Virus record (IMG/VR): IMGVR_UViG_3300000298_000017
Location: 1-43,390 of that record
Direction: 5' to 3' (one strand)
Length of the DNA stretch: 43,390 nucleotides
Source: a virus
The notes beneath the pieces are model-generated. The model was not told the origin of the DNA. It did no database searches and saw only the letters and a program-made list of their open reading frames with translations. Of the stretch, positions 2,393 to 32,890 are shown piece by piece (positions within the stretch are counted from its first letter, which is position 1; each line of letters opens with the position of its first letter). The position numbers were made by a program, and so were the translations under genes.

Positions 2393-4279
2393 TCACTCCA
2401 CCAAGTCTGTACCGCTTCTACGGTCCTCGTCCCTTAGATAAGGCCGCAAAAACATTGACGCCTCTCTCGGATAGAAGCCAATGTCCAGTTTGACTCGTTG
2501 TGAACTGTTCCCATAAACCTCACCGCTCTTGTTTGTATCAGCAGTTTCTCGGACGGTCGTAGCCGCCACCGAACCTGGGACCATTCCGTCGTTAACCAAG
2601 GTAACACGCCGCTCAATATTAGGCATAGCGCGCTCTAACTCGCTAAGTACATCTAGTCTGGATACAGCAGATTTGACAGAGGCTGCGTTTCCCTCCAGCC
2701 CGTTCGCTATCCCTTGGTCAATATTCTTGCCCAGGCGCTCCCCTCGCTTAGACGGAGAATGTACCTCTGCTTCTTTCTCGGCGGTTCCAAAAATCGCATC
2801 TATGACAGAACCTATGGCGTCTACCACATTCCCGACCATGGACAAGAATCCATCTATCAGGCCCTGAATGATATTGGCTCCAATGTCAAACAGCATTTGT
2901 GGCAACTGGGCAAACCCATCCAAAATAGCTTTAACTACATCAGGAAGCGCAAGCACAATGCTTGGAATCGCACTTATGATGCCGTAAACTAGAGCAGTAA
3001 GAATTTCGACGCCGGTTCCAATTATTTCAGGAAGATTCTCTATGATAAAATCAATAATGGATGTAAGTATCTGCGGGAGATTTTCCATCAAAATTGGAAT
3101 TGCAGAAACAATCCCATCTATCAGGCTTATAAGAATGTCGGCCCCTGTATCCAGAATGGAGGGCAAATTTTCGGTAAAATATTCTGAAATTGACGATATT
3201 ATTTCTGGCAGCTTCTCTACAAGGGACGGAATGCCATTTTTGATTCCATCCGCTATGTATTTGAGAAGTTCAATCCCGGCATCCAACAAGGAGGGAGCCA
3301 GTTCTACAAGAGCAACGAATATTTCTTCGACCACCTGTGCCAGTCCGTCCAGCAGGGTCGGCAGATTATCGATGATCCCCTGCAAAATAGCTTGGAGAAC
3401 ATCCACGCCAAAGGAAAGAAAATCCGGGAGCTTCTCCACCAGCGCCGTGACCATATCGCCGATGGCCGCAGAAAGCGCCTCATCCGCTCCATCTACACCA
3501 TTGACCAGGTCATTGAACGCCGTAACGACACTTGCGATTGAAGGGAGAAATTCAGATAGGAGATTATTTTTTACTTTTGATACGGTTTCTCCCAGTTGAG
3601 ATAACGTATCATCGAGAAGGATCTGATTTTCTCTCGCCTGAATCAGCGCTTCGTTGTTTCGATAAAATGCCTCGCTCGCTTGGTCGTAGGTCCTGGACAG
3701 GGTGTCCATAATAAGCTGGTTGCGTTCACTCTCAGAGGTACATTCGGCCAACTTTTCGTTAAACTCATCCTCGGAGATTCCAGCCCAGTTGAGCGCGTCA
3801 GCCAGAACGCCGGTTACCTGACCGACCTTCGCCGTCTCGTTTGCGCTTTCAATCAGCCCTTCGATTGGAAGGGAGTCGCCAAAGGTACCGAATACACCAG
3901 CGGCGATATCGGTCCATGTGGATACGTCCTCCTCATTCTCCGCCAGTTTTGCCAAGAGCTGGGATGCCTCGGTAGCCGTATCGGTATCGCCAAGTATTTT
4001 GTAAAAGTCGCCGTAAGCTTTGGAGGCTGTTTCAGGTCCATATCCCGCCGCCTCAAAGGCGGTATTCAATTTACCTTGGGCGACTCGGTATTCTTCGGTA
4101 GCAGATTCCAGGGCTAGGAGTCCGGTCACCGCTCCAGTTGCGGCGGTTGCTACTCCTCCAATGGCCGCTACAGTTCCTTTCAGCGCCGTCTTGGCAACGC
4201 CACCCAACTTGGATAAGCCAGACTTAAAACCGCTTTCGTCGATATCTGTTCCGATTTTTACAGTGCCATCGTTCGCCAA
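2393..4279 (-). CDS. Tail tape measure protein
   Basis: 628 aa, the largest tail-module ORF. It has helical A/G/L/I-rich repeats (ENLPSILDTGADILISLIDGI, ENLPEIIGTGVEILTALVYGI). TTG start after AGGAGGTG. It is located after the two chaperone-position genes. Confidence 0.85.
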   Translation of the reverse strand: MANDGTVKIGTDIDESGFKSGLSKLGGVAKTALKGTVAAIGGVATAATGAVTGLLALESATEEYRVAQGKLNTAFEAAGYGPETASKAYGDFYKILGDTDTATEASQLLAKLAENEEDVSTWTDIAAGVFGTFGDSLPIEGLIESANETAKVGQVTGVLADALNWAGISEDEFNEKLAECTSESERNQLIMDTLSRTYDQASEAFYRNNEALIQARENQILLDDTLSQLGETVSKVKNNLLSEFLPSIASVVTAFNDLVNGVDGADEALSAAIGDMVTALVEKLPDFLSFGVDVLQAILQGIIDNLPTLLDGLAQVVEEIFVALVELAPSLLDAGIELLKYIADGIKNGIPSLVEKLPEIISSISEYFTENLPSILDTGADILISLIDGIVSAIPILMENLPQILTSIIDFIIENLPEIIGTGVEILTALVYGIISAIPSIVLALPDVVKAILDGFAQLPQMLFDIGANIIQGLIDGFLSMVGNVVDAIGSVIDAIFGTAEKEAEVHSPSKRGERLGKNIDQGIANGLEGNAASVKSAVSRLDVLSELERAMPNIERRVTLVNDGMVPGSVAATTVRETADTNKSGEVYGNSSQRVKLDIGFYPREASMFLRPYLRDEDRRSGTDLVE

Positions 4280-4993: not shown

Positions 4994-5349
4994 TTTTTCA
5001 GATTCTGTAGGGTGAGCAGCTTCTGTACCTCCGGTCGGTTCAGCGCTTCCCTGGCTTCCGCCAGCTTTGCTTCCATTCTTGCTTTCCGTGCGGGTGCGTC
5101 ATAAGCCGCAATGATGTCCTCACACGCCTTCATCAATTCGTTTGTATCTACCTCTTCCACGCTGGGCAAAGAGCCGGGAGCGAGATCCAAAACGAACATA
5201 TGGAGCCGCTGGACTACCTCCCGGCGGGTGATCTCCCCACTACGGTAATCCTGATCGATTTTTGCCACAGATTCGATCTTATCATCCACGGACAATGTTC
5301 TAGCGGGCAACTCATAGGTCTTTCCTTGGATGGTAACTTTGTAATTCAT
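4990..5349 (-). CDS. Tail assembly chaperone (gpG position)
   Basis: 119 aa between the major tail protein and the Gp15-like gene. Ends CTG AAA AAA TGA, overlapping the next ATG. Confidence 0.5.
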   Translation of the reverse strand: MNYKVTIQGKTYELPARTLSVDDKIESVAKIDQDYRSGEITRREVVQRLHMFVLDLAPGSLPSVEEVDTNELMKACEDIIAAYDAPARKARMEAKLAEAREALNRPEVQKLLTLQNLKK

Positions 5350-5361
5350 GTTGTTCTCTCC

Positions 5362-5859
5362 TTAGACAGCAGAATATGTATACTCTGTGGGGGCAGTTCC
5401 AACGCTCCGAAGGTCTACGGAAATAGCGGAGTTTTCGCCAGCATTTCCGCCGCCATCAGAATTAACGATGATGGAAACGGTGCCCTTCTCTCCCTTACCA
5501 GTCAGCAGAGAGAAATAAACATAGGGTACAACGACCTTCTGGCCTACTCCATGAGCGATATCCAGGCCAAAGCAGTAGTCCTGGAAAGCGTCGCCAATGT
5601 AGCGGTCGCCGGTGATGGCAAAGGTGCGCTGTGTGCCAGTCTTGGAGGTGGACAGTCCCGTTCGGATATACTGCTTGTCCTGGGTAACGGGGTTCATCTG
5701 TGGGTCCAAGCCAGCAATGCCCATCTGCACAACGGTATAGTCCTTCTCCGTGGTGGCCTCCTCTCCAATCCCGACTGCCAACACCCAATCATCGTTGGTA
5801 GCAAAACCAGCAAATTCATCATTCGGAGTATATCCGGCCATTAATTCAGATACTTTCAT
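5362..5859 (-). CDS. Major tail (tube) protein
   Basis: 165 aa, located after the connector genes and before the chaperones. No sheath gene is nearby. Strong RBS context. Confidence 0.6.
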   Translation of the reverse strand: MKVSELMAGYTPNDEFAGFATNDDWVLAVGIGEEATTEKDYTVVQMGIAGLDPQMNPVTQDKQYIRTGLSTSKTGTQRTFAITGDRYIGDAFQDYCFGLDIAHGVGQKVVVPYVYFSLLTGKGEKGTVSIIVNSDGGGNAGENSAISVDLRSVGTAPTEYTYSAV

Positions 5860-10459: not shown

Positions 10460-11625
10460 ATTTTCTGCACCGTCGGTCCTGTTATAGATCTTGTCCTTTC
10501 CGGCCTTGGGGTAAGCCCAGCCTGTTCGCAAAATTGCTTGTATTCTGCGCTCAGTGCCGCTGATTTCTTCCGGGCCTGTGTAGCTCCCAGCTTGTCACCT
10601 GCGGCTATCATGGCATCCCTCTCGTCCTTTGCATAGCGGATTGCAGTCTCCATCTGCCTTTGTCTCTGGCTGGCTTCGTAGCGGCTCATCTTCTGCCCCT
10701 TGTACTCGATCTTTTCTGAGGATCGTCGGTTGATGTCCGCCAGCTCCTTCCGGCTGTAGACCGACTTGGAAACCCCCAGTACGATGGGCGTGGCAAAGTG
10801 CTGGCAATTCAGCGTCCCAAAAGGGCGGTCAAGACTGCGATTGATGCGCTCCCACTCCTCATTGGAGAACTGCCGTCCCTGGATGTGGCGGTGGTCGGGG
10901 GCGCAGAGGCCGTGGGCGGAGATCTCCACACCATCGGCTCCAAACTCTCGTCCGGTCTCCTCCATCATTTGACTGTTGAGCCGCCGAACACCCTCCAGGA
11001 TATTCATGCGGGCGGAGGAATCCAGGCGGCGGGAGTATCCGCTTTCCCAGGTCACCCGGCGTAGGCCGCTTCGGGCCATCTCCTTGACTGTTGAGCGCAT
11101 TGCGCTCTGATAATCCACAACGCCGGTCTGCACATAGGCAATCGCCCGGTCAATAGCGGAGATGTAGTATTCCCGCAATGGGATGGTCTGCTTGCCACGC
11201 TTGAATCCAATCATGTAGGTGTTGGAGATATTGGCTGTACCATCCATAGCCTGACGCTTTGCGGCGTCCACAAAGGAGGACAGTACCGACCTGGCGGCGT
11301 AGCTCTGGAGCGCATCCATTTTCCTTGCTCTGTAATAGGTGTTGGCAAACTCCACATTCTCCTCCGCCACCTCCTCGAACAGCCTTTCCACTTCCTGCTG
11401 GTTCACACCCGTAATACGGGCAACTTCTTTCTCAATGGCCTTGAGGTCCGCCCCAGCATATTCGATGGCTGTTTTCAGGCGGTGAGCGTCCGCCGCACCG
11501 ATATCTCCAATTTTACGGATTCGCTCACAGATACGTTGAACAACATAGTTGTTCAGGCTCTCCAGGTTTTCCACGATGTTGTCCGGCAAGCCCTCCAGCC
11601 AGGACTCATTCATCAGTCGGCTCAT
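10456..11625 (-). CDS. Head morphogenesis / minor capsid protein (Mu F / SPP1 gp7-like)
   Basis: 389 aa immediately after the portal. Core sequence GADGVEISAHGLCAPDHRHIQGRQFSNEEWERIN is typical of the MuF-like family. Confidence 0.8.
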   Translation of the reverse strand: MSRLMNESWLEGLPDNIVENLESLNNYVVQRICERIRKIGDIGAADAHRLKTAIEYAGADLKAIEKEVARITGVNQQEVERLFEEVAEENVEFANTYYRARKMDALQSYAARSVLSSFVDAAKRQAMDGTANISNTYMIGFKRGKQTIPLREYYISAIDRAIAYVQTGVVDYQSAMRSTVKEMARSGLRRVTWESGYSRRLDSSARMNILEGVRRLNSQMMEETGREFGADGVEISAHGLCAPDHRHIQGRQFSNEEWERINRSLDRPFGTLNCQHFATPIVLGVSKSVYSRKELADINRRSSEKIEYKGQKMSRYEASQRQRQMETAIRYAKDERDAMIAAGDKLGATQARKKSAALSAEYKQFCEQAGLTPRPERTRSITGPTVQKI

Positions 11626-13024
11626 TTATGATCGGCTGAATTGCCGCCTCCTGTATGTACTGGCTTCCGGCTTCTTCGGCAATCTCCTCCACGCGGGCCT
11701 TGGCCGTCTCATAATCCTCATCCATCATCCAGGCACGAACCTCCGCCTTATCTACAGCGCCGATTCCCTCCGCAACCGTAAGCTGATTGAAGTGTTCATT
11801 CAGTTGTTCGATATAAGAAGCGGACCAATCATAATGCGTCTCCCACGGTCCAATCGGGGCCAGATTATTATAATTGGCAATCACGTCCACAGCGTGGAGC
11901 AGATCGTCTGTCCCTCGTTCCAGTGCCCGGCGGAACTTGGTGATAACCGCAAATGTCGAGTTAAGCGCCGCCCGCATTTCAGTGGCGGTGGCGTAGGAGG
12001 TAGTCGGCGGCGTCAGTATTCCGGGAGACAGGCCACATAGGAGCTCCACCATCTTGTTGTTGACTGTAATTCCGACCTCCAGGTCTGAACCCCGTATCTC
12101 TGGAGAAAACTCTTGGATCAGTTTGCCGGGGTTGGCATTATCTCCGACACCTCTCATCATCTGAAAGAAACGCCGTTTTTCCTGTGGTAGCACTACATTT
12201 CCGTTTTCATCCTTCACCAAAAGAGTCTTGTCGGCAAAGATCATAGTCTCCTTGGCGCTGTACTCCCGGTTGAAACGCTCATACGCCTCCACCGCCTTTG
12301 CCATAGGGCCGTCCACACCGGCTGTAATCTTCACGCCGTTTACGCCGTTCACGTCCGCCCGGTTGACCGCAGGCGACTTATAGCGGCCAAACAGCGGGCG
12401 GTCCACATTTGGGATGATCTGTTCCTCTGGGATGTCCTTCCAGGCTGGCACTTGGTCCAACCGAATCTCGTTCGCTCCCTTAAAGGCTACGTTACGGATG
12501 ATAAGCGCGCTGGTTTCCTGCCCACTCTCAGTCTGTGCCTCCTTAACCATCTGAATCTCATATCGCTGATATAACCCGGACTCATTTTTGATTTCTCCGA
12601 CCTTCAAAATACAGGACAGGATATCATTCCCGATGGACTCGCATACAGCGAAGTCTCCATTCTTCACGATATCTACGCCCAGGCGCTTGCCATCGGTATA
12701 TGGCTTAACAATGCAATCCCCAGTTCCCAGAGCTACCTCAGCGGCCACATCCATTCTGTCTCCCAGGTAGTAGTCCAAAAAATTCTGAATAAATTTCGCT
12801 CTGGCACTATCCCCCTCAATTGTGATAGTGCTGTCCTGCATAGCCAGGGTCGCCACTTTGTTTGCCACAACCGCTGTTACGGAGATATTTGACATATCGC
12901 TGTAATCATCCCGGTATATTGGCTTATCTTGCAACTCCAGCCCGACCTTCTGGGCCAGATAAAGCAAAATGTTCTTCACAAATCCCGTAGGGTACACCCC
13001 CTCAATACATATACTGCTTGACAA
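11606..13024 (-). CDS. Portal protein (SPP1 gp6-like)
   Basis: 472 aa between terL and the MuF-like gene, overlapping both neighbours. The start codon is uncertain (TTG at 13024). Confidence 0.8.
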   Translation of the reverse strand: MSSSICIEGVYPTGFVKNILLYLAQKVGLELQDKPIYRDDYSDMSNISVTAVVANKVATLAMQDSTITIEGDSARAKFIQNFLDYYLGDRMDVAAEVALGTGDCIVKPYTDGKRLGVDIVKNGDFAVCESIGNDILSCILKVGEIKNESGLYQRYEIQMVKEAQTESGQETSALIIRNVAFKGANEIRLDQVPAWKDIPEEQIIPNVDRPLFGRYKSPAVNRADVNGVNGVKITAGVDGPMAKAVEAYERFNREYSAKETMIFADKTLLVKDENGNVVLPQEKRRFFQMMRGVGDNANPGKLIQEFSPEIRGSDLEVGITVNNKMVELLCGLSPGILTPPTTSYATATEMRAALNSTFAVITKFRRALERGTDDLLHAVDVIANYNNLAPIGPWETHYDWSASYIEQLNEHFNQLTVAEGIGAVDKAEVRAWMMDEDYETAKARVEEIAEEAGSQYIQEAAIQPIINEPTDE

Positions 13025-14261
13025 AGTGATTTATGGAGTACCGTAGCTCGTCCATAGCGTGATTGTATGCGTCTACTGGATTCCCGTGCTCGTCCACGCA
13101 GTACATACCGATCTCTTTCAAAAAATCTATGTGTCCATATGTTTCATCTTCCACTAGAAAGAAACATCCGTCCTGAATCATATTTTGTGTGTACTCTATC
13201 CCGACCTTGATTCCCTTGGTACTCCCGCGGATATCGTGTGCATTATTGTCCGCGTTTAGTGCGTCGATTCCATAAAGTTCCAGTTCCTTTCGTAACGCCT
13301 TACAGGCCGGGTCAATATACCATGCGTCTTCCCGCATATTCCAGTGGTTGCGGCAATATGGCGCAAATGTTCCGGCTAGTTCTCTTGCCTGTACGCTCAT
13401 AGCCTTGTTCCCGCCGTCGTAGTACCAGTTTGCCACACGGTATAGCGCCATCCCCTTCTTTGTGCGGCAGACCAGGTTACAGGACACGCTTGTGGCATCC
13501 GTCAGGCCGCCGTCTCCGGCAAAGTACATCTCAATAGGGCGGGCATCGTTCGGCAGCCGGGGCAGGATGTGCTTAGTCGGATCAAACATGGAGTAAATCA
13601 CACCCTGGGGGATACACCGTTCTCCCAGCCAGTCCCGCTGATAGAGATATGGATTTCTCTCCAGCGTCCGGCGTAACTCTTCCTTTCGCTCCGGTGTGAT
13701 AATCGGGTTGTCATCCACCGTCCAATGTGTCCAGCGGGTGTCCTGCACATTGAACACATCTGTGATGACCGGGTGCATGGGTGCTGGCGGGTTCAGGTCG
13801 GCCAAATGCCAACGGATATGGGCGGCATACGTCCGGCGGAAGCACTCCTGAATCATGTTCATGTGCAGGATGTCAATCTCGCAGAAGTACACCCCACCCA
13901 AGGATAGGCCACGGATGGTCTTGTCGCTGTCCGCCTTGGCTCCGCCCTTGTAATAGATCTTCTTTACGCCGGAACAGGTTAGAGCCTCCAGGTGGTCCCC
14001 ATGGTCATCATGCTTCAAGTTCGCTTGCCTTCCAAACAAGTGGATCAGGCCATTTCCATCACCATCCATGACCAACCGAAACGCCTGCTGCTGTGAAGCC
14101 CCGACCACCAGGAAATTGCTGTCCTTGGAGGTGTTCAAGAAGTCATAGAACCGCAGGATGCAGGCCGTGGTCTTGCCGCTTCTGGGCGTTCCCTCCGCCA
14201 CATCCAACGTCCGGTCAAATGGGCGATTCAGAAAATCTATTTGCTTTGCGGAAAGGCTCAT
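13002..14261 (-). CDS. terL: Terminase large subunit (PBSX/SPP1-like)
   Basis: Walker A GTPRSGKT, Walker B-like VYFCEID, and nuclease-domain C-terminal motif DAYNHAMDELRY. 419 aa. Confidence 0.9.
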   Translation of the reverse strand: MSLSAKQIDFLNRPFDRTLDVAEGTPRSGKTTACILRFYDFLNTSKDSNFLVVGASQQQAFRLVMDGDGNGLIHLFGRQANLKHDDHGDHLEALTCSGVKKIYYKGGAKADSDKTIRGLSLGGVYFCEIDILHMNMIQECFRRTYAAHIRWHLADLNPPAPMHPVITDVFNVQDTRWTHWTVDDNPIITPERKEELRRTLERNPYLYQRDWLGERCIPQGVIYSMFDPTKHILPRLPNDARPIEMYFAGDGGLTDATSVSCNLVCRTKKGMALYRVANWYYDGGNKAMSVQARELAGTFAPYCRNHWNMREDAWYIDPACKALRKELELYGIDALNADNNAHDIRGSTKGIKVGIEYTQNMIQDGCFFLVEDETYGHIDFLKEIGMYCVDEHGNPVDAYNHAMDELRYSINHFVKQYMY

Positions 14262-14656
14262 TATTTCCTCGATTCGTACATATCACGCAGTAACGGGTGA
14301 ATCTCTTGTCTTTGCTCCGTATTCGCTGTAAATTTGTCAATCAGCGTTCCCAGTGCAGTGGTAATCTGCGCTGGACTGGCCTCCGCCAGCTTCTCCGGGT
14401 CGTTCAGGGCGGCCAGCCCTTTTCCGATAATCTCGCAGACAACTCCCTTTTGACTGTCCATATACGCCAGAATGTCGGCGGTGTTCTCGTCTTTTTTCTG
14501 ATTGCACATTTCTGCAATATCTGCATTTCCTTGCACAATTTTCTTCACCGTGTTAAGAGAAACGCCATTTACTTTTGCTGTTGCGTTATAACTGCCCAAC
14601 TGTACATAGTCAGCAATAATTTTCTTTTTCTGCTTATCCGTCAGCCGTGCAGCCAT
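14261..14656 (-). CDS. terS: Terminase small subunit
   Basis: 131 aa with an N-terminal HTH-like segment (LTDKQKKKIIADYVQLGSYNATAKVNGVSLNTVKKIV). Overlaps the terL start by 1 nt. RBS AGGAAGGTGGTG. Confidence 0.7.
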   Translation of the reverse strand: MAARLTDKQKKKIIADYVQLGSYNATAKVNGVSLNTVKKIVQGNADIAEMCNQKKDENTADILAYMDSQKGVVCEIIGKGLAALNDPEKLAEASPAQITTALGTLIDKFTANTEQRQEIHPLLRDMYESRK

Positions 14657-15195
14657 AACACCACCTTCCTGTCATACAAATCCGCCCCCGTCTCTCGCAA
14701 CGAGGCGCGGCATATATACCCCTTCCGGGGTATGCTCCGGGTTTGGTCAGGCTTTCCGGGGGCCTGCTCTGTAAGGACTTGCGTCCTGGTGCCACCGCCC
14801 GCCTCATGCGGCGAGGAGCGGCGTATGTGCGCTTTCCCGCTTAGATTGTCACGCCGTATTGGGAGGCCCGTGCACAGGCAAACACGGCAGTTTTCAGCGG
14901 GATAGCGCGGTTTTGACTCTCAAAGGCTGCCATTCTACCCGGAGTCGGCCAGCTATGGCTTACTGGCAGGCCGCTGGTGATTTCACTGGCAAGATACGCG
15001 ACCCCGATTCGCCAGTATAGTGTCTTTCCACAGTCAGCTCCTTGGCCTTTGGAGCACATTGTCTAATGCCCGTAAAGGGCGATGTTGCCGCATGGAGGGC
15101 GAGGCCCTCCGGCCCGGATTCTTGGGCTGGTTCTGCCGTGCGGCGTATGTACCCCGGCAAGCGCCGGGGTTGAGGAGGAAATAGAAGAAGCGAAT
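14657..15195. other. ORF-free, GC-rich, hairpin-dense region (candidate structured RNA or packaging/regulatory region)
   Basis: No credible ORF or RBS. There are many perfect short stems, two of them with GNRA loops when read on the minus strand, and a repeated GCGGCGTATGT module. See findings. Confidence 0.5.
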
Positions 15196-15219
15196 GGGAG
15201 CGCAGGGGCATACGCTCCC
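15181..15219 (-). terminator. Probable terminator of the early/replication operon
   Basis: Stem GGGAGCG/CGCTCCC (15196-15202 and 15213-15219). On the minus strand it is followed by ATTCGCTTCTTCTATTT. An alternative outer pairing AATGGGAG/CTCCCATT exists. Confidence 0.4.
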
Positions 15220-15302
15220 ACACTCCCATTGTCGCATAGTTCTTATTTTGTGCGCACCATATGTTGTGAAGGCAAAAAGTTTTTTCACAATATAATGAAA
15301 GG

Positions 15303-15506
15303 TTAACCTTCATCAAAATAGCCTAAACTTACATCGTAATATTTTGCAATTATCGCAAGATTCGATAGCGTTGGCTCGTGTTCTCCCTTTTCATACCCTC
15401 TCAATGTGTTCTGACCCAATCCCATCAGTTGCGATACAATATCAGCACTTTTCCCTGGCTCCTTTTCTTTCCTCAGGCGCTTTAGCTTATCCTTGAACTC
15501 GTCCAT
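15303..15506 (-). CDS. XRE-family helix-turn-helix protein
   Basis: ATG at 15506 after AAGGATGGTGG. Product MDEFKDKLKRLRKEKEPGKSADIVSQLMGLGQNTLRGYEKGEHEPTLSNLAIIAKYYDVSLGYF. Last gene of the operon. Confidence 0.7.
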   Translation of the reverse strand: MDEFKDKLKRLRKEKEPGKSADIVSQLMGLGQNTLRGYEKGEHEPTLSNLAIIAKYYDVSLGYFDEG

Positions 15507-15519
15507 CCTACCACCATCC

Positions 15520-15720
15520 TTATAGTCCCTGTTGCTCCATTGGGCAGTCAAAGGATACTCTTTTTCTCCGCTTTCCTATTTCCTTGGATTCACAGTGGTC
15601 CACGTCTCCCACTCTACGGCATCCAGTATCTAATAGATGGTTGCAAAAGGGCGCATCCTTGGAATTATTGATACCTCGCCAGTAGACGCAGGTTTTCCCC
15701 TTGTCACAGATTTCGACCAT
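15520..15720 (-). CDS. Small Cys-rich protein, 66 aa
   Basis: GGGAGGAGAGAT followed by ATG at 15720. Product MVEICDKGKTCVYWRG...CNHLLDTGCRRVGDVDHCE. Confidence 0.5.
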   Translation of the reverse strand: MVEICDKGKTCVYWRGINNSKDAPFCNHLLDTGCRRVGDVDHCESKEIGKRRKRVSFDCPMEQQGL

Positions 15721-16042
15721 ATCTCTCCTCCCAAGGTTTAAACAGGTCATCTCCAACAATGGCCCTGATCTGCTCGTCAATCTTTGCTTTGGCATAGACG
15801 AACTCACCATCGTCCTGCTGATCCTCACAGACCATCCGTGCCATACCGTTCATGGCTTCTATGTATGCGGTGCAGAAAGCCTCAGACCTACCAGGGCCAA
15901 GCTGGAGGACCTCGTGAGCGGCAATCATGGCAGCATCTTGTCCCATCTGCATCAGCATGTCCATTTTTAACCGGAAAAGGGCGTTATACTTGGCCTCCGC
16001 TTCTGTCTTGATACGGGCGAGGGTTGCGCTTGGTTTAGGCAT
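15704..16042 (-). CDS. Hypothetical protein, 112 aa
   Basis: Track ORF, tightly packed between neighbours with protein-like composition. Confidence 0.55.
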   Translation of the reverse strand: MPKPSATLARIKTEAEAKYNALFRLKMDMLMQMGQDAAMIAAHEVLQLGPGRSEAFCTAYIEAMNGMARMVCEDQQDDGEFVYAKAKIDEQIRAIVGDDLFKPWEERYGRNL

Positions 16043-16044
16043 TG

Positions 16045-16398
16045 CTATCCCTCCTCATGCTGTCCGCCCTCCCCGTCGTGGATGGAGCCCTCCATCTCAA
16101 TCAAAAACGCCGCATTACAAGCCAGATGCCACAGGTGCGGAAGGCCGCTCTCCTGATCGCACTTCTCCCCCTTGAGATAGGCTAGCCAGTGCCGGTAGAG
16201 CGCATCCCGGTAACGCTGCGGCTCCACCTGCCGCCAGTTCTCCGGGTCGTGATACTTTTCGTTACCGTACATGCGGACCGCCGTCACAGCATCGATTAGA
16301 CTAACAGGAGTAAGTGTGGGGCGGGGCTTCCCTGCGTCGGCTTTGGCTTGCTGGTCGTCTTCATGGCCCCATGTACTGGTAATAATTACTTCGCTCAT
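16045..16398 (-). CDS. dATP/dGTP diphosphohydrolase N-terminal-domain-like protein (DUF5664-like)
   Basis: ATG at 16398 (ATGA-coupled). Motifs VRMYGNEKYHDPENWRQVEPQRYRDALYRHWLAYLKGEKCDQESGLPHLWHLACNAAFLIE match my memory of this phage family. Confidence 0.5.
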   Translation of the reverse strand: MSEVIITSTWGHEDDQQAKADAGKPRPTLTPVSLIDAVTAVRMYGNEKYHDPENWRQVEPQRYRDALYRHWLAYLKGEKCDQESGLPHLWHLACNAAFLIEMEGSIHDGEGGQHEEG

Positions 16399-16988
16399 TC
16401 CGCACCTCCGATGATCTCGTCCAGCTTGACGGATTCGCCGGGGCGGAGAGATGGGAACAATTCCCTTGGTATGTCCCAACATCTGTCTTTCCCTATCGTT
16501 TCTCTGTGCAGTGTCAGATCCGCCTCTGCATACTCACCCCGTACGACCTTGTAGGCCCCCACGGATTCTTTCAGGTCTTTTGCCCTCTCCACCTCCTGCT
16601 CCGTCCAGCGGGGATCGTCAATAAGCTCCCAATGAGCGGGGTCTGGTTTTCTATATAGTGCAATTCTTATCTTGCAACTACTCAATTCCGAAGAACTATG
16701 TAGGCGGCATTTACAGCATTCTCCTGCGTTTTCGCACTCCTTTTGACACTCTTCCAGCGTCCAGTCCTTCAACGGCTTGTCCATGTTGGCCTCCTCCTTC
16801 GTATATGGCACCCAGCAAGTGCCGTTCTCTTTCTTGTGTTGGCAATCCTCATTTTCGCTCCAGTCGCAACAGGGGCCGCCATGAGCACAGTCGCAGCACA
16901 TACCTTCTACTGCGTTGGTTTCCTTATGTTTTGCCGTCTCCGGCATATCATCCTCCACCACATAGCCAAGCCAAAGTTCACTGCTCAT
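16395..16988 (-). CDS. Cys-rich hypothetical protein, 197 aa
   Basis: Track ORF containing CCDCAHGGPCCDW and ECCKC clusters. Confidence 0.55.
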   Translation of the reverse strand: MSSELWLGYVVEDDMPETAKHKETNAVEGMCCDCAHGGPCCDWSENEDCQHKKENGTCWVPYTKEEANMDKPLKDWTLEECQKECENAGECCKCRLHSSSELSSCKIRIALYRKPDPAHWELIDDPRWTEQEVERAKDLKESVGAYKVVRGEYAEADLTLHRETIGKDRCWDIPRELFPSLRPGESVKLDEIIGGAE

Positions 16989-18128: not shown

Positions 18129-18283
18129 TCCTGTTTCCTCCATGTATTGTATGGGGCATGATATAGCCTGCCGTCTCCTGTTCTAACCATAATTTGTGGT
18201 GCGCTGGCAGTAGGGGTATAAATTTTAACTATAACCCCACATACTCCACTCAGCACACAGACTACCTTATCCCCGATGTTCAT
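18125..18283 (-). CDS. Small protein, 52 aa (below the track cutoff)
   Basis: ATGA-coupled at both ends. Hand translation: MNIGDKVVCVLSGVCGVIVKIYTPTASAPQIMVRTGDGRLYHAPYNTWRKQE. Confidence 0.45.
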   Translation of the reverse strand: MNIGDKVVCVLSGVCGVIVKIYTPTASAPQIMVRTGDGRLYHAPYNTWRKQE

Positions 18284-18747
18284 CCCTGCTCCCTCCGTAG
18301 TGCGGCCTCGGCCTCTTCGCGGGTCAGCTTTTCCGCAACCGCGTCCGCAATAAATCTTGTTACAGGGTTATTGTGATAAAAACAGGTGTTCATAGCGGAT
18401 TTGAGAGCATTCTCCCCGTCTTTGTCTTTGTACCCACCACCTGGAAGCACCACGCACCGCCCTTCCTTATCCGCCTGGGCCAATTCGTGGAGACGGTCAA
18501 TAGTCATTCCTGCTTTTGTCGCCTCAATGCAGGCCAAAACAAATTGTTTGTCCAAGCCAGCCTCTAAATAAAGTTTTATAAGACGGTCAAAATCAGCCAC
18601 CTCCTCCGGCCCCAAGCCGGTGTCCTCGTAGGCGGCGAGGCGCTGAAGCAGGGCATACATATATTCGTTATCAGGGGTTATGGTTACGCCCACAAGTTCA
18701 GACGGAAAAACCACACTTCCATCAACCCTTCTTGTCAGCCGCTTCAT
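18280..18747 (-). CDS. Hypothetical protein, 155 aa
   Basis: Track ORF with protein-like composition, located in the early operon. Confidence 0.6.
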   Translation of the reverse strand: MKRLTRRVDGSVVFPSELVGVTITPDNEYMYALLQRLAAYEDTGLGPEEVADFDRLIKLYLEAGLDKQFVLACIEATKAGMTIDRLHELAQADKEGRCVVLPGGGYKDKDGENALKSAMNTCFYHNNPVTRFIADAVAEKLTREEAEAALRREQG

Positions 18748-21971: not shown

Positions 21972-22741
21972 GGTCCATCCTCCCGGTTCATGTCTTCAAG
22001 CATTCTACGCATCCGCTCCATGTTCGCCTGTGTCCGCTCCGCAGCCGAAGTCTCCGCCTGCCGGTCCGAATCCGTTACCTTGCGCCGCTTACCATTGACC
22101 CACTTGTATTCCGGCTCCTCCCCAGTCTTCCGCTTCTCTTCCTCAAGCCGGTCCACGCACCAGGACAGGATGGCCCTGTAATCGCTGGTGTAGGTCTTAC
22201 CTGTGCTGCCTTTGTAGTTGTCCAGGATCTCGATCAGCCTAGCGGTGTCGGCAGATCCATGAGTGTCAAGCAGCCTCTGGTGCTCGGCATTGGTCATGGT
22301 CACAAATTCTGCCCATTGGACCTTCGGCTCGATATCGCTCCCGTCCTTCTTCTTGCGCGCCTTACTACCCCCGTCAGGGGGTACAGATTCAGATACAGAT
22401 ACAGACTCAGATACAGATACAGCTTTTTTTGATTTTTCTTCAAAACCTAAAAAAGCATTTGGTTTTTTTGATTTCTCTGACAAACCATTTGCTTTCTTTG
22501 GCCTTCCGCCCTTTTTCCCAGCCTCCTGCCTCGCCTGAACCGTTGCCGCCCAGCGGCTTGCACACTCTTCAAAATATGACCGGTTGAAGGAGAAAGCCAT
22601 CATTACCACTGGATCATGGACATCAACAGACTCATCCATGTGATACTTGAACCACGCTTTTAAAAGCTGGCCAGCCTGCTCATCTGTGAGAAGGTCGATC
22701 TGCTCCGCCCACTCTGTCCTTACGACAAAGCTTTCCTTCAA
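21962..22741 (-). CDS. Replisome organizer / DnaD-like replication initiation protein
   Basis: 259 aa. TTG start after GGGAGGAGAGG. Central low-complexity linker (KKGGRPKKANG...SVSESVSVSESV), then AEFVTMTNAEHQRLLDTHG...YRAILSWCVDRL. Lies next to SSB and RusA. Confidence 0.5.
   Translation of the reverse strand: MKESFVVRTEWAEQIDLLTDEQAGQLLKAWFKYHMDESVDVHDPVVMMAFSFNRSYFEECASRWAATVQARQEAGKKGGRPKKANGLSEKSKKPNAFLGFEEKSKKAVSVSESVSVSESVPPDGGSKARKKKDGSDIEPKVQWAEFVTMTNAEHQRLLDTHGSADTARLIEILDNYKGSTGKTYTSDYRAILSWCVDRLEEEKRKTGEEPEYKWVNGKRRKVTDSDRQAETSAAERTQANMERMRRMLEDMNREDGPCG
22381..22500. repeat. Direct repeats and AT-rich tract inside the replisome organizer gene (candidate origin)
   Basis: TCAGATACAGATACAGAC / TCAGATACAGATACAGCT at 22389-22424, then TTTTTTGATTTTTCTTCAAAACC (22425-22447) and TTTTTTTGATTTCTCTGACAAACC (22463-22486). 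Confidence 0.6.
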
Positions 22742-22756
22742 GAGCCTCTCCTCCCA

Positions 22757-29430: not shown

Positions 29431-29775
29431 GTGTTTTATGACAAATTCGTTTTTCTTTGTAAAGAAAAAGGCGTGGCACCAACGAGGGCGGCCCTTGATA
29501 TTGGGCTAAGTAAATCTGCACCTATTAAGTGGCGAACAACCGGAGCAACGCCAAACGGAGAAACACTAAACAAAATTGCAGAATACTTTTGCGTTTCTGT
29601 AAGTGTTCTTCTTGGAGAAGAAACAAAAAAAGCGCCCACCGATGGTGAGCGCAAAGTCAGCGACGACGATATTATGTTTGCCTTGTGGGGCGATTCTGAT
29701 GATGTAGATAAAGACGACCTGGACGACGTAAAGCGATACGCCGCCTTTGTCCGGGAAAGGAAGAAGAAAAAATGA
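29431..29775 (+). CDS. XRE-family repressor (CI/ImmR-like)
   Basis: GTG start after GAGGTGA. HTH segment FLCKEKGVAPTRAALDIGLSKSAPIKWRTTGATPNGETLNKIAEYFCVSVSVLLG. Followed by an ImmA-like gene. Confidence 0.8.
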   Translation: MFYDKFVFLCKEKGVAPTRAALDIGLSKSAPIKWRTTGATPNGETLNKIAEYFCVSVSVLLGEETKKAPTDGERKVSDDDIMFALWGDSDDVDKDDLDDVKRYAAFVRERKKKK

Positions 29776-31771: not shown

Positions 31772-32890
31772 TTGTCAATGAAATGCTGCAAATGCAGGAA
31801 AGAGATTCCAGACGAAAGCAAATTTTGTTTGAAATGTGGCGCAAAACAAAACTTATTACAAAGCCGCCATACTAGGGGAAACGGGCAAGGCACCGCAATC
31901 AAGCGTGGAAGCACCTGGACGGCCATTTGGACCATAGAGGTATATCCAGATACCAAAGAGAGGAAAATCCATCAGAAACGCCGCTGGAAGGGCGGATTTA
32001 AGACTAAGACCGCAGCCCTCGCTTATGCCGCCAATCCCATACAGGAAGAAAAGGAATCTCCGACGCTCCGCACCTATTACACTGGGTGGGAAAAATCCGA
32101 TATGTGCGACTTGTCCAGATCTAAACAGACAGCATTTAAAATCGCATGGAGTAAAATGAACGAATTAGCCGGAAAGCGTATGGATGAGCTTACCATCAAT
32201 CAGATACAGTCCTGTGTAAGCAGAAACGCTCCTACATATTATCCGGCAAAAGATATGAAAACGCTGTTATCCCATCTATACAGACGGGCTGTGGCAGAGG
32301 GGACAGCTAGAACTAACCTGGCAGAATTTATCCGTCTGCCTCCGCTGGAGGAAAAAGAGCTTCAGCCCTTCACTGAAATTGAACTGCACAAGCTCTGGAC
32401 CGCTTATGGAACTGGTGACCGCATAATCGGGTTTGTCCTCCTGATGATCTACACTGGGATGATGCCGGGAGAGCTTTTGAAGTTTAAGGGTGATATGGTA
32501 GACTGGACAGCTCATGAGATTAGAGGCTGTGGCCTGAAAACAAAAAAGCGTAAAGAAACACCCATTGTATTTCCCGACCTGTTGGAGCCAGTATTGCGTA
32601 ATCTTATTGAAAGCAGTAAGTCCCATTCCGACTATGTAGTAGGGCTAAACAAAGATAAATTTTATAGTGAATATCATGCCTCACTTCAACGAGCGGGGGT
32701 CCGGGATCTACCTCCCTATTCATGTCGCCACACAACGGCAACCGCTCTCGCACTTGGAAATATCGCCCCAAGCGTGATACAAGAAGTCATGCGACACACA
32801 AAATTCTCTACGACACAACGCTATATCCACCCAGATAGCGCATCGGCTTTGGCTGCCGTAAACGCTTTGGGGCAGGGAAAAGAATGCTAA
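31772..32890 (+). CDS. int: Tyrosine integrase with an N-terminal zinc ribbon
   Basis: C-terminal catalytic region YSCRHTTATALALGNIAPSVIQEVMRHTKFSTTQRYIHP (R...HxxR...Y). N-terminal CCKCRKEIPDESKFCLKCG. attP lies immediately downstream. Confidence 0.9.
   Translation: MSMKCCKCRKEIPDESKFCLKCGAKQNLLQSRHTRGNGQGTAIKRGSTWTAIWTIEVYPDTKERKIHQKRRWKGGFKTKTAALAYAANPIQEEKESPTLRTYYTGWEKSDMCDLSRSKQTAFKIAWSKMNELAGKRMDELTINQIQSCVSRNAPTYYPAKDMKTLLSHLYRRAVAEGTARTNLAEFIRLPPLEEKELQPFTEIELHKLWTAYGTGDRIIGFVLLMIYTGMMPGELLKFKGDMVDWTAHEIRGCGLKTKKRKETPIVFPDLLEPVLRNLIESSKSHSDYVVGLNKDKFYSEYHASLQRAGVRDLPPYSCRHTTATALALGNIAPSVIQEVMRHTKFSTTQRYIHPDSASALAAVNALGQGKEC

What the first reader, a model, noticed from the sequence alone, without database searches (positions are those of the whole stretch)
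14657..15302. About 600 nt of ORF-free, GC-rich, stem-dense sequence upstream of terS: candidate large structured RNA or packaging-recognition region
Elsewhere the genes overlap or sit less than 100 nt apart, and the other long intergenic regions are AT-rich promoter regions. This one is GC-rich and has no credible ORF: the track ORFs here lack an RBS and translate to R/P/C-rich noise.

It contains many perfect hairpins:
- ATACCCC/GGGGTAT at 14716-14733, with a GGAA loop on the minus strand.
- AGGAC/GTCCT at 14774-14787, with a GCAA loop on the minus strand.
- CCGTG/CACGG at 14868-14887.
- GCCC/GGGC at 15068-15080.
- GGAGGGC/GCCCTCC at 15094-15110.
- ACCCCGGC/GCCGGGGT at 15151-15170.

The two GNRA tetraloops appear only in the minus-strand reading, which is the direction of all neighbouring genes. 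The 11-mer GCGGCGTATGT occurs twice (15140-15150 and 14818-14828), with a relative GCGGCATATAT at 14707-14717. The first and third copies are each followed at once by a hairpin beginning ACCCC.

The size and phage context fit the class of large ornate RNAs reported in Firmicutes prophages (ROOL/GOLLD-like). A terminase recognition (pac/cos) region or a late-gene regulatory leader are alternatives.
Basis: partly seen in the sequence, partly recalled or inferred. Interest (0 to 1): 0.7.

Follow-up and report, generated by a model that had tools for sequence, protein, structure and literature searches.

The report
tRNA-less phage tRNA array of RNA modules
The gap upstream of the packaging genes of this gut phage is not one giant RNA but a string of small folded RNA modules, the counterpart of the tRNA gene array of related phages, with tRNA look-alike hairpins where the relatives carry real tRNAs.

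Summary
Window 14657-15302 has no conserved ORF, is GC-rich (0.57 against 0.51), and all six hairpins and three repeat copies lie where stated.

The ROOL/GOLLD reading does not hold. Rfam gives nothing, even at E<=10, and relatives share the region only as independently shuffled 40-130 nt modules.

In related Oscillospiraceae phages the same slot, between an XRE-type regulator gene and the packaging genes, holds real tRNA genes. Their 5' leaders end in AUAY.

In the window the three tRNA positions hold tRNA look-alikes:
- M2, a 58-nt cloverleaf-like RNA.
- M5, a 12-bp acceptor/T-arm minihelix ending in ACCA; stem and ACCA nearly invariant in 128 copies.
- M6b, a hairpin 12 nt before the terS ribosome-binding site.

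A spacer motif, M4, covaries strongly. It occurs in at least 119 viral contigs and always has the same orientation as nearby tRNAs (117 to 0).

Best explanation: a co-transcribed late-operon leader cut at the tRNA-like modules, probably by RNase P. The RNA array is shown. The processing is inferred.

M2, M4 and M5 match no Rfam family. A packaging site is unlikely.

The parts
15228..15233 (-). Putative -10 box (GACAAT, preceded by TGC) of the promoter that drives the array. Inferred only.
   Evidence: In 36 unique variants a TAnAAT-like box (GACAAT, GAAAAT, TAGAAT or TAAAAT) directly precedes M1, while the sequence further upstream differs. No good -35. Not called by the consensus scan, which found a weaker site at 15316-15289.
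15192..15230 (-). M1: 5'-proximal hairpin. Two tandem GGGAG(Y)G copies compete for one CGCUCCC strand. The conserved core is GGGAGCG-N10-CGCUCCC.
   Evidence: MFE -25.3 kcal/mol, z -6.1. Present in 51 sites, 49 of them 50-90 nt after the stop of an XRE/HTH gene. Variants keep the pairing through G.U and compensatory changes: GGGGGCA/UGCUCCC and GGAGGUG/CGUCUCC.
15151..15170 (-). Leader hairpin ACCCCGGC-GCUU-GCCGGGGU, followed by the leader end ACAUAC (15150-15145).
   Evidence: z -4.2. Conserved with M2 in 22 unique variants.
15087..15144 (-). Slot 1 = M2: a 58-nt cloverleaf-like tRNA look-alike. It has a 6-bp closing stem GCCGCA/UGCGGC, a 2-bp mini-helix, a 4-bp arm with an 8-nt loop, and a 7-bp arm with a 3-nt loop. 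It has no CCA.
   Evidence: The MFE equals the comparative consensus. 25 distinct sequences: 96.2% of cells paired, 5 pairs with compensatory change, covariation 0.200 against 0.099 in shuffles (0 of 500) and <=0.061 when slid. In L017, L024 and L072 the same junction (GCAAUAU|) is followed by tRNA-Ile.
15015..15080 (-). M3: spacer with hairpins GCCC-UUUAC-GGGC (15080-15068) and GCUCC-N9-GGAGC (15055-15037), plus the conserved string UGACUGUGGAAAGACACUAUAC (15036-15015), which ends in another AUAC junction.
   Evidence: Shared as a unit with many relatives. Also found in Castelnaud and L024 with a different downstream domain.
14910..15014 (-). M3b: a 105-nt domain of unknown role. One of at least two alternative sequences found at this position.
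   Evidence: 94-97% identical where present, with too little variation for a covariation test. No excess folding (z +0.29).
14823..14909 (-). M4: conserved spacer motif. Sequence: GCGC-UAU-CCCGCU-GAAAACU-[variable hairpin of 12-53 nt]-YGUGACAAUCUA-AGCGGG-AA-GCGC, then the leader end ACAUAC (14828-14823).
   Evidence: Base of the variable hairpin is paired in 224 of 264 cells against 35-37% in shifted registers. On a model-fitted alignment of 63 distinct sequences: 94.1% paired, 17 of 23 pairs with compensatory change, covariation 0.205 against 0.097 (0 of 500), slid <=0.036. z -4.2. No Rfam match.
14787..14822 (-). Slot 2 = M5: tRNA acceptor/T-arm minihelix mimic GCCGCUCCUCGCC-GCAUGA-GGCGGGCGGUGGC-A-CCA. 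It is 12 bp with one C.C mismatch at the 7:66 position, followed by a single-stranded ACCA.
   Evidence: MFE ((((((.((((((......)))))).))))))..... The exact 35-mer occurs in 76 IMG/VR contigs. In 128 instances, changes fall mainly in the loop and at position 4; the 3' strand has two single changes, and ACCA is kept in all but one divergent copy (L116, GCAA). The leader is almost always AUAC or AUAU. The 3' strand CGGUGGC equals that of the phages' tRNA-Thr. In L024, L025 and L010 the slot after M4 holds tRNA-Thr.
14716..14787 (-). M6a: spacer with hairpin AGGAC-GCAA-GUCCU (14787-14774), a possible pseudoknot AGGC..GCCU/CCGG (14765-14734), and hairpin AUACCCC-GGAA-GGGGUAU (14733-14716). The leader end AUAU follows (14715-14712).
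   Evidence: Coordinates verified. The last hairpin plus AUAU/AUCU precedes tRNA-Met(CAT) in L025 and L080. A G.U variant AGGGC..GUCCU occurs in L001.
14682..14711 (-). Slot 3 = M6b: 11-bp hairpin GCCGCGCCUCGUU-GCGAGA-GACGGGGGCGG that starts right at the AUAU| junction. It has no CCA.
   Evidence: z -2.6. Variants change only to wobble pairs on this strand (C->U opposite G).
14657..14681 (-). 12-nt linker, Shine-Dalgarno GGAAGGUGG (14669-14661) and spacer before the AUG (14656) of the terS-like gene 14261-14656.
   Evidence: Read directly from the sequence. The gene overlaps terL (13002-14261; Terminase_6N and PHROG terminase hits).
15303..15551 (-). Flanking gene: 82-aa XRE/HTH_3 regulator that always precedes the array. 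Candidate late-gene regulator by position (inferred).
   Evidence: HTH_3 E 2.7e-10 and PHROG transcriptional regulator. 49 of 51 M1 sites follow such a gene, with many different alleles.

Best explanation
The region is the non-coding, promoter-proximal part of the transcription unit that runs into the packaging and late genes. It is read on the minus strand. It is the counterpart, without canonical tRNAs, of the tRNA gene array that related Oscillospiraceae phages carry at this place.

It is a chain of small RNA modules that fold on their own: M1, a leader hairpin, M2, M3, M4, M5, M6a and M6b. It is not one large RNA.

Three positions each begin right after a leader ending in AUAY. These are the positions where relatives have tRNA-Ile, tRNA-Thr and tRNA-Met. 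In the window they hold tRNA look-alikes: a cloverleaf-like RNA (M2), an acceptor/T-arm minihelix with ACCA (M5) and a plain hairpin (M6b).

Proposed mechanism (inferred): host RNase P recognises these acceptor-like helices as it does pre-tRNAs and cuts at AUAY|G.
- This breaks the leader into small stable RNAs.
- It leaves the terS/late mRNA starting with a tight 5' hairpin (M6b) 12 nt before its ribosome-binding site, which would protect it from 5'-end-dependent decay.
- The repeated junctions also act as recombination points, through which tRNAs, look-alikes and gene cassettes are swapped between phages.

Shown: non-coding status, strand, modular homology to tRNA arrays, covarying structure of M2 and M4, near-invariance of the M5 stem and ACCA.

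Inferred: co-transcription from a promoter at about 15233, RNase P cleavage, the mRNA-stabilising role.
For: Homology and modularity:
- BLAST of the window against 90 related loci shows separate modules with sharp borders at the AUAY|GCC junctions.
- Flanks of the invariant 35-mer fall into many unrelated classes.

tRNA array:
- 35 of 91 loci hold ARAGORN tRNAs inside the element.
- In 136 loci with M4, all 117 tRNAs within 1.5 kb are on the same strand as M4 and none on the other.
- tRNA leaders end in ..AUAU| or ..AUAC|, like the window's three junctions, and slot by slot the window's modules replace tRNA-Ile, tRNA-Thr and tRNA-Met.

Structure:
- M2 and M4 covary.
- Many pairs are G.U only on the minus strand. 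Example: 36 G.U at the first pair of the M4 variable stem.
- Module folds match the comparative structures.

M5 has the geometry of a minimal RNase P substrate: 12 bp, free ACCA, pyrimidine at -1.
- Changes are mainly in its loop and at stem position 4.
- That minihelices with RCCA are RNase P substrates is established knowledge (McClain, Guerrier-Takada and Altman 1987). The RCCA dependence is also described in PMC12710915 (abstract seen).

Position:
- M5 or M6b lies 10-25 nt before the ribosome-binding site of whichever gene comes next.
- An XRE gene precedes the array in 49 of 51 cases.
- No intrinsic terminator on the minus strand between M1 and terS.

Not coding.
Against: - No transcript or cleavage data. 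Promoter, co-transcription and RNase P cutting are all inferred.
- M2 and M6b lack a CCA tail, so they would be weaker RNase P substrates.
- In the window the last A of ACCA is also the first base of the next hairpin.
- A G4->U variant of M5 (18 copies) breaks a stem pair without compensation.
- The exact M5 was found in only four species-representative genomes: Flavonifractor, Intestinimonas, Muriventricola and one MAG. Part of its invariance may therefore reflect recent spread.
- The role of the strongly conserved internal loop of M4 is not explained by a mere spacer or processing role.
- The M4 pair counts come from an alignment fitted to the model.
- The related sequences are mosaic copies, so independent events are fewer than the cell counts suggest.
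Confidence: 0.6

Rival explanations
1. The region encodes one large ornate RNA of the ROOL/GOLLD kind, about 600 nt, that folds as a whole and perhaps multimerises.
For: Size, GC-richness and strong predicted folding (z -5.4). Phage context next to the tRNA position: GOLLD and ROOL are reported as often near tRNAs and in prophages (PMC5737381).
Against: No Rfam hit at gathering score or at E<=10. Modules occur separately and in other orders in relatives, and many relatives keep only 40-80 nt pieces. No conserved long-range pairing was seen. 14910-15014 folds no better than shuffles. None of about 55 related loci scanned holds ROOL or GOLLD.
Confidence: 0.04
2. The region acts at the DNA level as a packaging recognition site (pac or cos), or another protein-binding site, for the terminase encoded just downstream.
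For: It lies directly upstream of terS/terL, and M5 is always upstream of and co-oriented with a terminase gene. The ~36-bp M5 core is nearly invariant and GC-rich. Several contigs end at or near M5.
Against: The same M5 sits in front of at least three terL families only 22-27% identical to the window's terL, at 0.4-3.5 kb. It is directly followed by unrelated genes. It occurs twice in L026. Changes that keep pairing only as G.U on one strand, and loop-only variation, point to RNA. Contig ends at a shared repeat are what assemblers produce. M4 lies between tRNAs far from any terminase in other loci.
Confidence: 0.06
3. The region is a decaying tRNA array. The look-alikes are tRNA pseudogenes and the spacers are leftovers, conserved only because these phages exchanged DNA recently. 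It has no function of its own.
For: Relatives show clear tRNA decay, for example a tRNA-Thr with the anticodon arm deleted in 18 loci. The exact M5 has a narrow host range. M3b shows no structural signal.
Against: M2 and M4 keep their helices through compensatory changes. M4 has 44 different variable stems on an unchanged core. M5 varies in the loop but hardly at all in the 3' strand and ACCA over 128 copies with dozens of different flanks. The look-alikes keep the exact tRNA leader junction.
Confidence: 0.12
4. The modules are trans-acting small RNAs. The acceptor-stem/NCCA elements act as tRNA mimics that bind or distract enzymes working on tRNA 3' ends (host defence toxins, CCA-adding enzyme, synthetases, EF-Tu). 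M4 is a protein-binding or catalytic RNA.
For: M5 reproduces the acceptor/T-arm geometry and ACCA. Relatives hold further non-tRNA elements ending in NCCA. The 7+11-nt internal loop of M4 is nearly invariant. The same arrays hold orphan motifs such as RAGATH-21, DUF3800-VIII and int-alpA.
Against: No partner protein is evident in the window: Pfam scans of 29 ORFs found none, and 15 of them had no hit. No experimental hint. A processing signal explains the same features more simply.
Confidence: 0.13
5. The region is a cis-regulatory leader that controls late genes by antitermination or by masking the terS ribosome-binding site.
For: Position between a regulator gene and the late genes. M1 has two competing pairings. 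A CCUCC-containing pyrimidine tract could pair with Shine-Dalgarno sequences.
Against: No terminator-like hairpin with a U tract on the minus strand. The same modules occur between tRNAs and before unrelated genes. No riboswitch or leader family matches.
Confidence: 0.05

Closest known systems
Phage tRNA gene arrays placed between early and late genes
   Same: Same place, strand and leader junctions. Relatives carry tRNA-Ile, Thr, Met, Gln, Pro, Ser and Trp in the homologous slots. Gain and loss happen by recombination.
   Different: The window has no canonical tRNA. The slots hold non-tRNA look-alikes, and the spacers are themselves conserved structured RNAs.
tRNA-like RNase P substrates outside tRNA genes: minihelix model substrates, the phage P1/P7 C4 RNA precursor, phage T4 species 1 RNA, MALAT1 mascRNA, mitochondrial tRNA punctuation (from general knowledge)
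   Same: M5 has the 12-bp acceptor/T-arm helix, a 3' ACCA, a pyrimidine at -1 and G at +1. It sits where cutting would separate RNAs within one transcript.
   Different: Cleavage is untested. M5 has a 6-nt loop without T-loop sequence. M2 and M6b lack CCA. The use directly in front of phage mRNAs is a proposal.
ROOL (RF03087) and GOLLD (RF01998) large RNAs
   Same: Prophage context and closeness to tRNA positions (PMC5737381). The total length of the gap is similar.
   Different: No covariance-model match. The region is modular rather than one fold, has no conserved multistem junction architecture, and its parts occur alone.
Orphan phage-associated Rfam motifs from Weinberg et al. 2017 (int-alpA, RAGATH-21, DUF3800-VIII, GP20-b, skipping-rope)
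   Same: These motifs lie in the same arrays next to M4 in relatives. DUF3800-VIII directly follows M4 in L099. They are of similar size, and their function is likewise unknown.
   Different: None of them is present in the window. M2, M4 and M5 are different sequences and structures.
5'-terminal stabiliser hairpins of bacterial and phage mRNAs (for example the ompA, ermC and aprE leaders; general knowledge)
   Same: A tight hairpin 10-25 nt before the ribosome-binding site that would lie at the very 5' end after processing.
   Different: Here the 5' end would be made by cleavage at a tRNA-like junction. Nothing has been measured.

Membership tests
ROOL RNA (RF03087) | Match to the Rfam covariance model. 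[quoted passage not shown] | tested here: not met
   No hit at gathering score in the window. No hit at E<=10 with lax filters over 14400-15600.
GOLLD RNA (RF01998) | Match to the Rfam covariance model with its conserved 3' half. | tested here: not met
   Same searches, no hit. None in about 55 related loci.
ROOL/GOLLD-like single large RNA (generic) | The whole length is conserved and covaries as one unit. | tested here: not met
   Relatives share independent modules with sharp borders. 14910-15014 has z +0.29 and no covariation.
Canonical tRNA | Cloverleaf with anticodon arm and T-loop, detectable by ARAGORN or RF00005. | tested here: not met
   0 tRNA or tmRNA in the window. No RF00005 hit. 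Relatives do have tRNAs in the same slots.
tRNA-like RNase P minihelix substrate | Coaxial acceptor plus T stem of about 12 bp. | tested here: met
   M5 folds as 6+6 bp with one C.C mismatch and a 6-nt loop.
tRNA-like RNase P minihelix substrate | Single-stranded 3' RCCA, and a pyrimidine at -1 with G at +1. | tested here: met
   ACCA is kept in 127 of 128 instances (L116 reads GCAA), and the leader is AUAC or AUAU in all but two.
tRNA-like RNase P minihelix substrate | Cleavage by RNase P at the predicted junction. | not testable with these tools
   Needs an in vitro assay or 5'-end mapping.
pac/cos packaging site | Specific pairing of the site with one terminase type, and a single copy per genome. 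| tested here: not met
   M5 lies upstream of at least three terL families (22-27% identity to the window's terL), at 0.4-3.5 kb, with two copies in L026.
pac/cos packaging site | Virion DNA ends or the first headful cut map to the site. | not testable with these tools
   No virion-end data available.
Intrinsic terminator or attenuator leader | GC-rich hairpin followed by a U tract on the transcribed strand. | tested here: not met
   No terminator-like site on the minus strand in 14000-16200. The hairpins are followed by AUUC, ACCA or AUUUGUAU.
Known phage-array Rfam motifs (int-alpA, RAGATH-21, DUF3800-VIII, GP20-b) | Covariance-model match at gathering score. | tested here: not met
   Absent from the window. 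Present in relatives only.
Protein-coding gene | ORF conserved in relatives, or a family match. | tested here: not met
   No Pfam or PHROG hit. Frameshifts, stops and truncations in relatives.

The most novel reading that the evidence does not exclude
The acceptor-stem/NCCA elements (M5 here; in relatives TL-A, the anticodon-less tRNA-Thr and a 4-bp microhelix) are purpose-built tRNA-end mimics. The phage makes them to occupy or distract enzymes that act on tRNA 3' ends, such as host anti-phage toxins that modify or cut the CCA end. Alternatively, or in addition, M4, with its invariant 7+11-nt internal loop placed immediately 5' of these elements, is a new catalytic or protein-recruiting RNA that acts on the neighbouring tRNA or tRNA-like RNA. 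This would make the array an RNA-based counter-defence or tRNA-handling device rather than a processing scaffold.
Probability: 0.12. Interest if true: 0.85.

Novelty: new variant of a known kind. Interest (0 to 1): 0.55.

Why it matters
- Phage tRNA arrays are usually read as lists of tRNA genes. Here the array framework persists with no tRNA, its spacers (M4) and place-holders (M2, M5) are under structural selection, and none is in Rfam.
- This gives three concrete, testable RNA motifs. M4 is found in at least 119 viral contigs.
- It gives a simple hypothesis for how gut Oscillospiraceae phages use tRNA-like punctuation to shape late-gene mRNAs.
- It explains the sharp mosaic joints in this genome region.
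- It shows that the 'hypothetical proteins' annotated over the homologous stretch in Flavonifractor phages Chenonceau and Castelnaud are most likely not genes.
- It adds to the picture of tRNA arrays as hubs for orphan phage RNAs such as GOLLD, ROOL, RAGATH and the DUF3800 motifs.

Tried and rejected
- **Rfam.** Gathering score on the whole window and E<=10 on the region gave nothing but noise: S15 leader at 13.8 bits and a lncRNA fragment.
- **tRNA/tmRNA.** ARAGORN found none in the window.
- **RNAalifold on MAFFT-aligned M4.** It failed (-2.15 kcal/mol) because MAFFT misaligned the variable hairpin and the 3' linker. I replaced it with register-anchored counting and a covariance-model alignment.
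- **A strict regular expression for M1.** It found nothing and was replaced by BLAST.
- **DUF3800 or another partner protein gene.** Pfam scans of 20 further window ORFs found none. They did identify an integrase, SSB, an amidase and minor capsid protein 2.
- **Small ribozymes.** By eye I compared M4 with the hammerhead, twister, pistol and kink-turn consensus sequences. None fits, and this is my reading, not a test.
- **Lambda cosN.** M5 resembles it (GGGCGGCGACCT against GGGCGGUGGCACC). I set this aside as a GC-rich coincidence, given the terminase diversity.
- **Literature.** Searches for this element or for phage minihelix mimics found no description of it.
- **ATAYGCC strand bias across loci.** It is confounded by AUG-CC start codons, so I did not use it.
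Full report
**What is there**

Window 14657-15302 lies between an 82-aa XRE/HTH_3 regulator gene (15303-15551, minus) and a small terS-like gene (14261-14656, minus). The terS-like gene overlaps terL (13002-14261), which is followed by portal and minor capsid protein 2.

The window is a temperate phage genome. It has an integrase at 31772-32890, SSB and recombination genes upstream, and an amidase.

- All six hairpins and the three copies of the 11-mer are at the stated coordinates, and the two GNRA loops exist only on the minus strand.
- GC is 0.57-0.60 against 0.51 for the window.
- The mechanical ORFs in the gap have no family match. In relatives they are interrupted by frameshifts, stops or recombination joints.
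- The region folds much better than shuffled sequence on both strands (z about -5.4).

**Not a known RNA family**

Rfam 15 gives no match in the whole window at gathering score. Over the region it gives only noise at E<=10. ARAGORN finds no tRNA or tmRNA. The specific ROOL/GOLLD proposal was therefore tested and not met.

**Relatives show a mosaic, not one RNA**

The phage collection gave two partial matches, Flavonifractor phages Chenonceau and Castelnaud. Both are at the same place, after a small 'transcriptional regulator' and before the terminase genes. There the stretch is annotated as short hypothetical proteins.

An exact 35-mer from the region occurs in 76 IMG/VR contigs, and a 34-mer in 17. 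BLAST of the window against these loci shows that the region is shared piecewise. I call the pieces M1 (15230-15192), M2 (15144-15087), M3/M3b (15080-14910), M4 (14909-14823), M5 (14822-14787) and M6 (14787-14682).

The flanks of the invariant 35-mer fall into dozens of unrelated classes with sharp borders. A single 600-nt fold would not tolerate this.

**The key to the anatomy: this is the tRNA array slot**

In relatives the same interval holds real tRNA genes, all on the strand that corresponds to the window's minus strand.
- 35 of the first 91 loci have such tRNAs.
- L024 reads: regulator gene, M1, tRNA-Ile, M3, M4, tRNA-Thr, a leader, M5, next gene.

The 5' end of each tRNA is preceded by a leader ending in AUAU or AUAC.

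Its core ATAYGCCGC occurs three times here on the minus strand, against 0.5 expected in the whole window. Slot by slot:
- The junction at 15145|15144 corresponds to the tRNA-Ile slot.
- The junction at 14823|14822, right after M4, corresponds to the tRNA-Thr slot.
- The junction at 14712|14711, after the ACCCC-GNRA-GGGGU hairpin, corresponds to the tRNA-Met slot.

**What fills the slots in the window**

- **Slot 1 holds M2.** It is a 58-nt cloverleaf-shaped RNA closed by GCCGCA/UGCGGC. Its minimum-energy fold equals the comparative consensus. Across 25 distinct sequences, 96% of cells pair and five pairs show compensatory change. The covariation score is 0.200 against 0.099 in shuffles (0 of 500) and at most 0.061 for slid partners.
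- **Slot 2 holds M5**, GCCGCUCCUCGCC-GCAUGA-GGCGGGCGGUGGC-A-CCA.
  - It is a 12-bp helix with one C.C mismatch at the place of pair 7:66, a 6-nt loop and a free ACCA. That is the geometry of a tRNA acceptor/T-arm minihelix.
  - Its 3' strand CGGUGGC is identical to that of the phages' own tRNA-Thr.
  - In 128 instances the changes fall mainly in the loop and at stem position 4. The 3' strand shows two single changes. ACCA is kept in all but one divergent copy. The leader is AUAC or AUAU in all but two.
- **Slot 3 holds M6b.** It is an 11-bp hairpin that starts at the junction and ends 12 nt before the terS Shine-Dalgarno sequence.

**The spacers are conserved RNAs too**

M4 is the clearest case. 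Its sequence is GCGC-UAU-CCCGCU-GAAAACU-[variable hairpin of 12-53 nt]-YGUGACAAUCUA-AGCGGG-AA-GCGC, followed by ACAUAY and the next tRNA or look-alike.
- The base of the variable hairpin pairs in 224 of 264 cells in 44 different versions, against 35-37% in shifted registers.
- A covariance model built from four sequences recovered the motif in 64 representative loci. On that alignment 94% of cells pair and 17 of 23 pairs show compensatory change. Covariation is 0.205 against 0.097 in shuffles (0 of 500) and at most 0.036 when slid.
- That alignment is fitted to the model, and the copies are related, so the number of independent events is smaller than the cell counts.
- In 136 loci with M4, all 117 tRNAs within 1.5 kb are co-oriented with it.
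- Many pairs are G.U on this strand, which would be A.C on the other. With the tRNA orientation, this settles the strand.
- In other loci M4 lies between two tRNAs, so it is an array spacer motif, not a terS leader element.

M1 is a strong hairpin (z -6.1). In 49 of 51 cases it lies 50-90 nt after the stop of an XRE-type gene, and these genes have many different alleles. It is directly preceded by a conserved TAnAAT-like box. I read this box as the -10 element of an activator-dependent promoter, which is an inference.

M3b (14910-15014) shows neither excess folding nor usable variation.

**Mechanism proposed**

The shown facts are an RNA-level, minus-strand, modular array homologous to a tRNA array, with tRNA look-alikes in tRNA positions.

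The simplest mechanism is that the array is transcribed as the leader of the packaging/late operon. No terminator-like site lies on this strand before terS. The leader would then be cut at the AUAY|G junctions by RNase P, the enzyme that must process the true tRNAs in sister phages.

M5 has every sequence feature of a minimal RNase P substrate. After cutting, the downstream mRNA would begin with a tight hairpin a few bases before its ribosome-binding site, M6b in the window. In relatives M5 is followed within 10-25 nt by the ribosome-binding site of a probable methyltransferase (my reading), of a terS-like gene, or of other genes. This arrangement is known to protect mRNAs from 5'-end-dependent decay (general knowledge).

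The repeated junctions also explain the mosaic joints and the gain and loss of tRNAs and cassettes.
- L026 has two M5 copies 1.27 kb apart.
- Chenonceau-type loci carry a tRNA-Thr that lacks its anticodon arm.

Cleavage, co-transcription and stabilisation are untested.

**Rivals**

A packaging site is unlikely.
- M5 precedes at least three terminase families only 22-27% identical to the window's terL, at 0.4-3.5 kb.
- It can be duplicated within one genome.
- Its variation pattern is that of an RNA hairpin.

Pure decay of a tRNA array does not explain the compensatory changes in M2 and M4, or the loop-only variation of M5.

A trans-acting role, as a tRNA-end mimic or an M4 ribonucleoprotein or catalytic RNA, is not excluded. 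It is the most novel reading.

**Relation to what is known**

The closest kinds are:
- phage tRNA arrays;
- tRNA-like RNase P substrates used as punctuation;
- the orphan phage RNA motifs catalogued by Weinberg et al. 2017.

That paper notes that GOLLD and ROOL often lie near tRNAs and in prophages (PMC5737381). In relatives, the arrays that contain M4 also contain int-alpA, RAGATH-21, DUF3800-VIII (immediately 3' of M4 in L099), GP20-b, skipping-rope and gut-2 RNAs. The window's modules therefore belong to a recognised habitat of unexplained phage RNAs, but M2, M4 and M5 match no Rfam family.

The exact M5 was found in only four species-representative genomes: Flavonifractor plautii, an Intestinimonas, Muriventricola aceti and one probably mis-binned MAG. 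Literature searches found no description of these elements.

**Verdict**

The region is real, non-coding and structured. It is a tRNA-less tRNA array made of small modules, not a ROOL/GOLLD-like giant RNA and not a packaging site.

It is a new variant of a known kind. It yields three well-defined new motifs and a testable processing model. Interest is moderate.

Noticed in passing
L001:3875-3944 (-), L003:920-989, L040:2805-2874, L117:1664-1734, L166:12202-12271: The Rfam int-alpA RNA motif lies inside the same array in several relatives, just 3' of the M6-type hairpin. It is absent from the window.
   Followed up: partly
L102:3100-3186, L146:211-297, L165:11279-11347; L099:4295-4361; L102:3681-3745, L124:9647-9706, L177:6728-6790; L142:10977-11073; L043:5999-6046: RAGATH-21, DUF3800-VIII (directly 3' of M4 in L099) and some GP20-b copies (L102, L146) lie within a few hundred nt of M4. 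Other GP20-b copies, skipping-rope and gut-2 lie kilobases from M4 in the same loci. These tRNA arrays look like hubs of orphan phage RNA motifs.
   Followed up: partly
L001:~4116-4165 in RNA-sense numbering; 18 loci including L026, L029, L011, L015 and L059: A 50-nt tRNA-Thr derivative lacking the anticodon arm (GCCAUCUUAGCUCAACUGGU|UUGGAGGUUCGAUUCCUCCCGGUGGCUCCA) is conserved in many loci. ARAGORN does not call it.
   Followed up: partly
L009:~1665-1745 (RNA sense), L007, L017, L004, L013 and others (about 47 copies): An ~80-nt tRNA-like element (TL-A: GCCGAGUG...GGCGG-CUCAAUA-CCGCC-UCUCGGC-U-CCA) often follows M4. It has a T-arm-like hairpin and an encoded CCA. Neither ARAGORN nor RF00005 recognises it.
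   Followed up: no
L009:1968-1984 (RNA sense); L009 and L055 near 1440-1545 and 5320-5375: A 4-bp microhelix with CCA (AUAU|GCCG-CCUCU-CGGC-UCCA) sits between two ORFs. A further tRNA-like RNA, GGCCAU...GCAGCAGUUCGAGUCUGCUG-AUGGCC-U-CCA, lies upstream of M4. Both suggest tRNA-like punctuation between genes.
   Followed up: no
L026 (two M5 copies, 11536-11570 and 12804-12838, minus): Two copies of M5 lie 1.27 kb apart and bracket an inserted segment. This fits cassette insertion by recombination between the repeated tRNA-like junctions.
   Followed up: partly
L022:2176-2254, L028:2414-2489: ARAGORN calls an odd 76-79-nt 'tRNA-Arg(CCG)' (GGAAUCUGGGACGGGGCGGAAUCCGUCAC...). Its D/anticodon region is unusual, so it may be a non-canonical tRNA or another look-alike.
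   Followed up: no
ON453904.1 (Chenonceau) 18215-18698; ON453903.1 (Castelnaud) 22244-22744: The GenBank records annotate short 'hypothetical proteins' (PHANOTATE calls) over the stretch homologous to this RNA array. These are probably not genes.
   Followed up: partly
window 15192-15230 (-): M1 contains two tandem GGGAG(Y)G copies that can each pair with the single CGCUCCC strand. The minimum-energy fold uses the first copy, but the second-copy hairpin is the part kept in L081. This could be a structural switch.
   Followed up: partly
window 29736-29744 (+): The only other ATAYGCCGC in the window lies on the plus strand in the lysogeny-side block near 29.7 kb. I did not examine it.
   Followed up: no
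window 16045-16482 and 16395-16988 (-): A dATP/dGTP diphosphohydrolase-like gene (PF18909) lies just upstream of the regulator gene. Its mechanical ORF overlaps the preceding 197-aa ORF by 88 nt, so the true start is probably further in.
   Followed up: no
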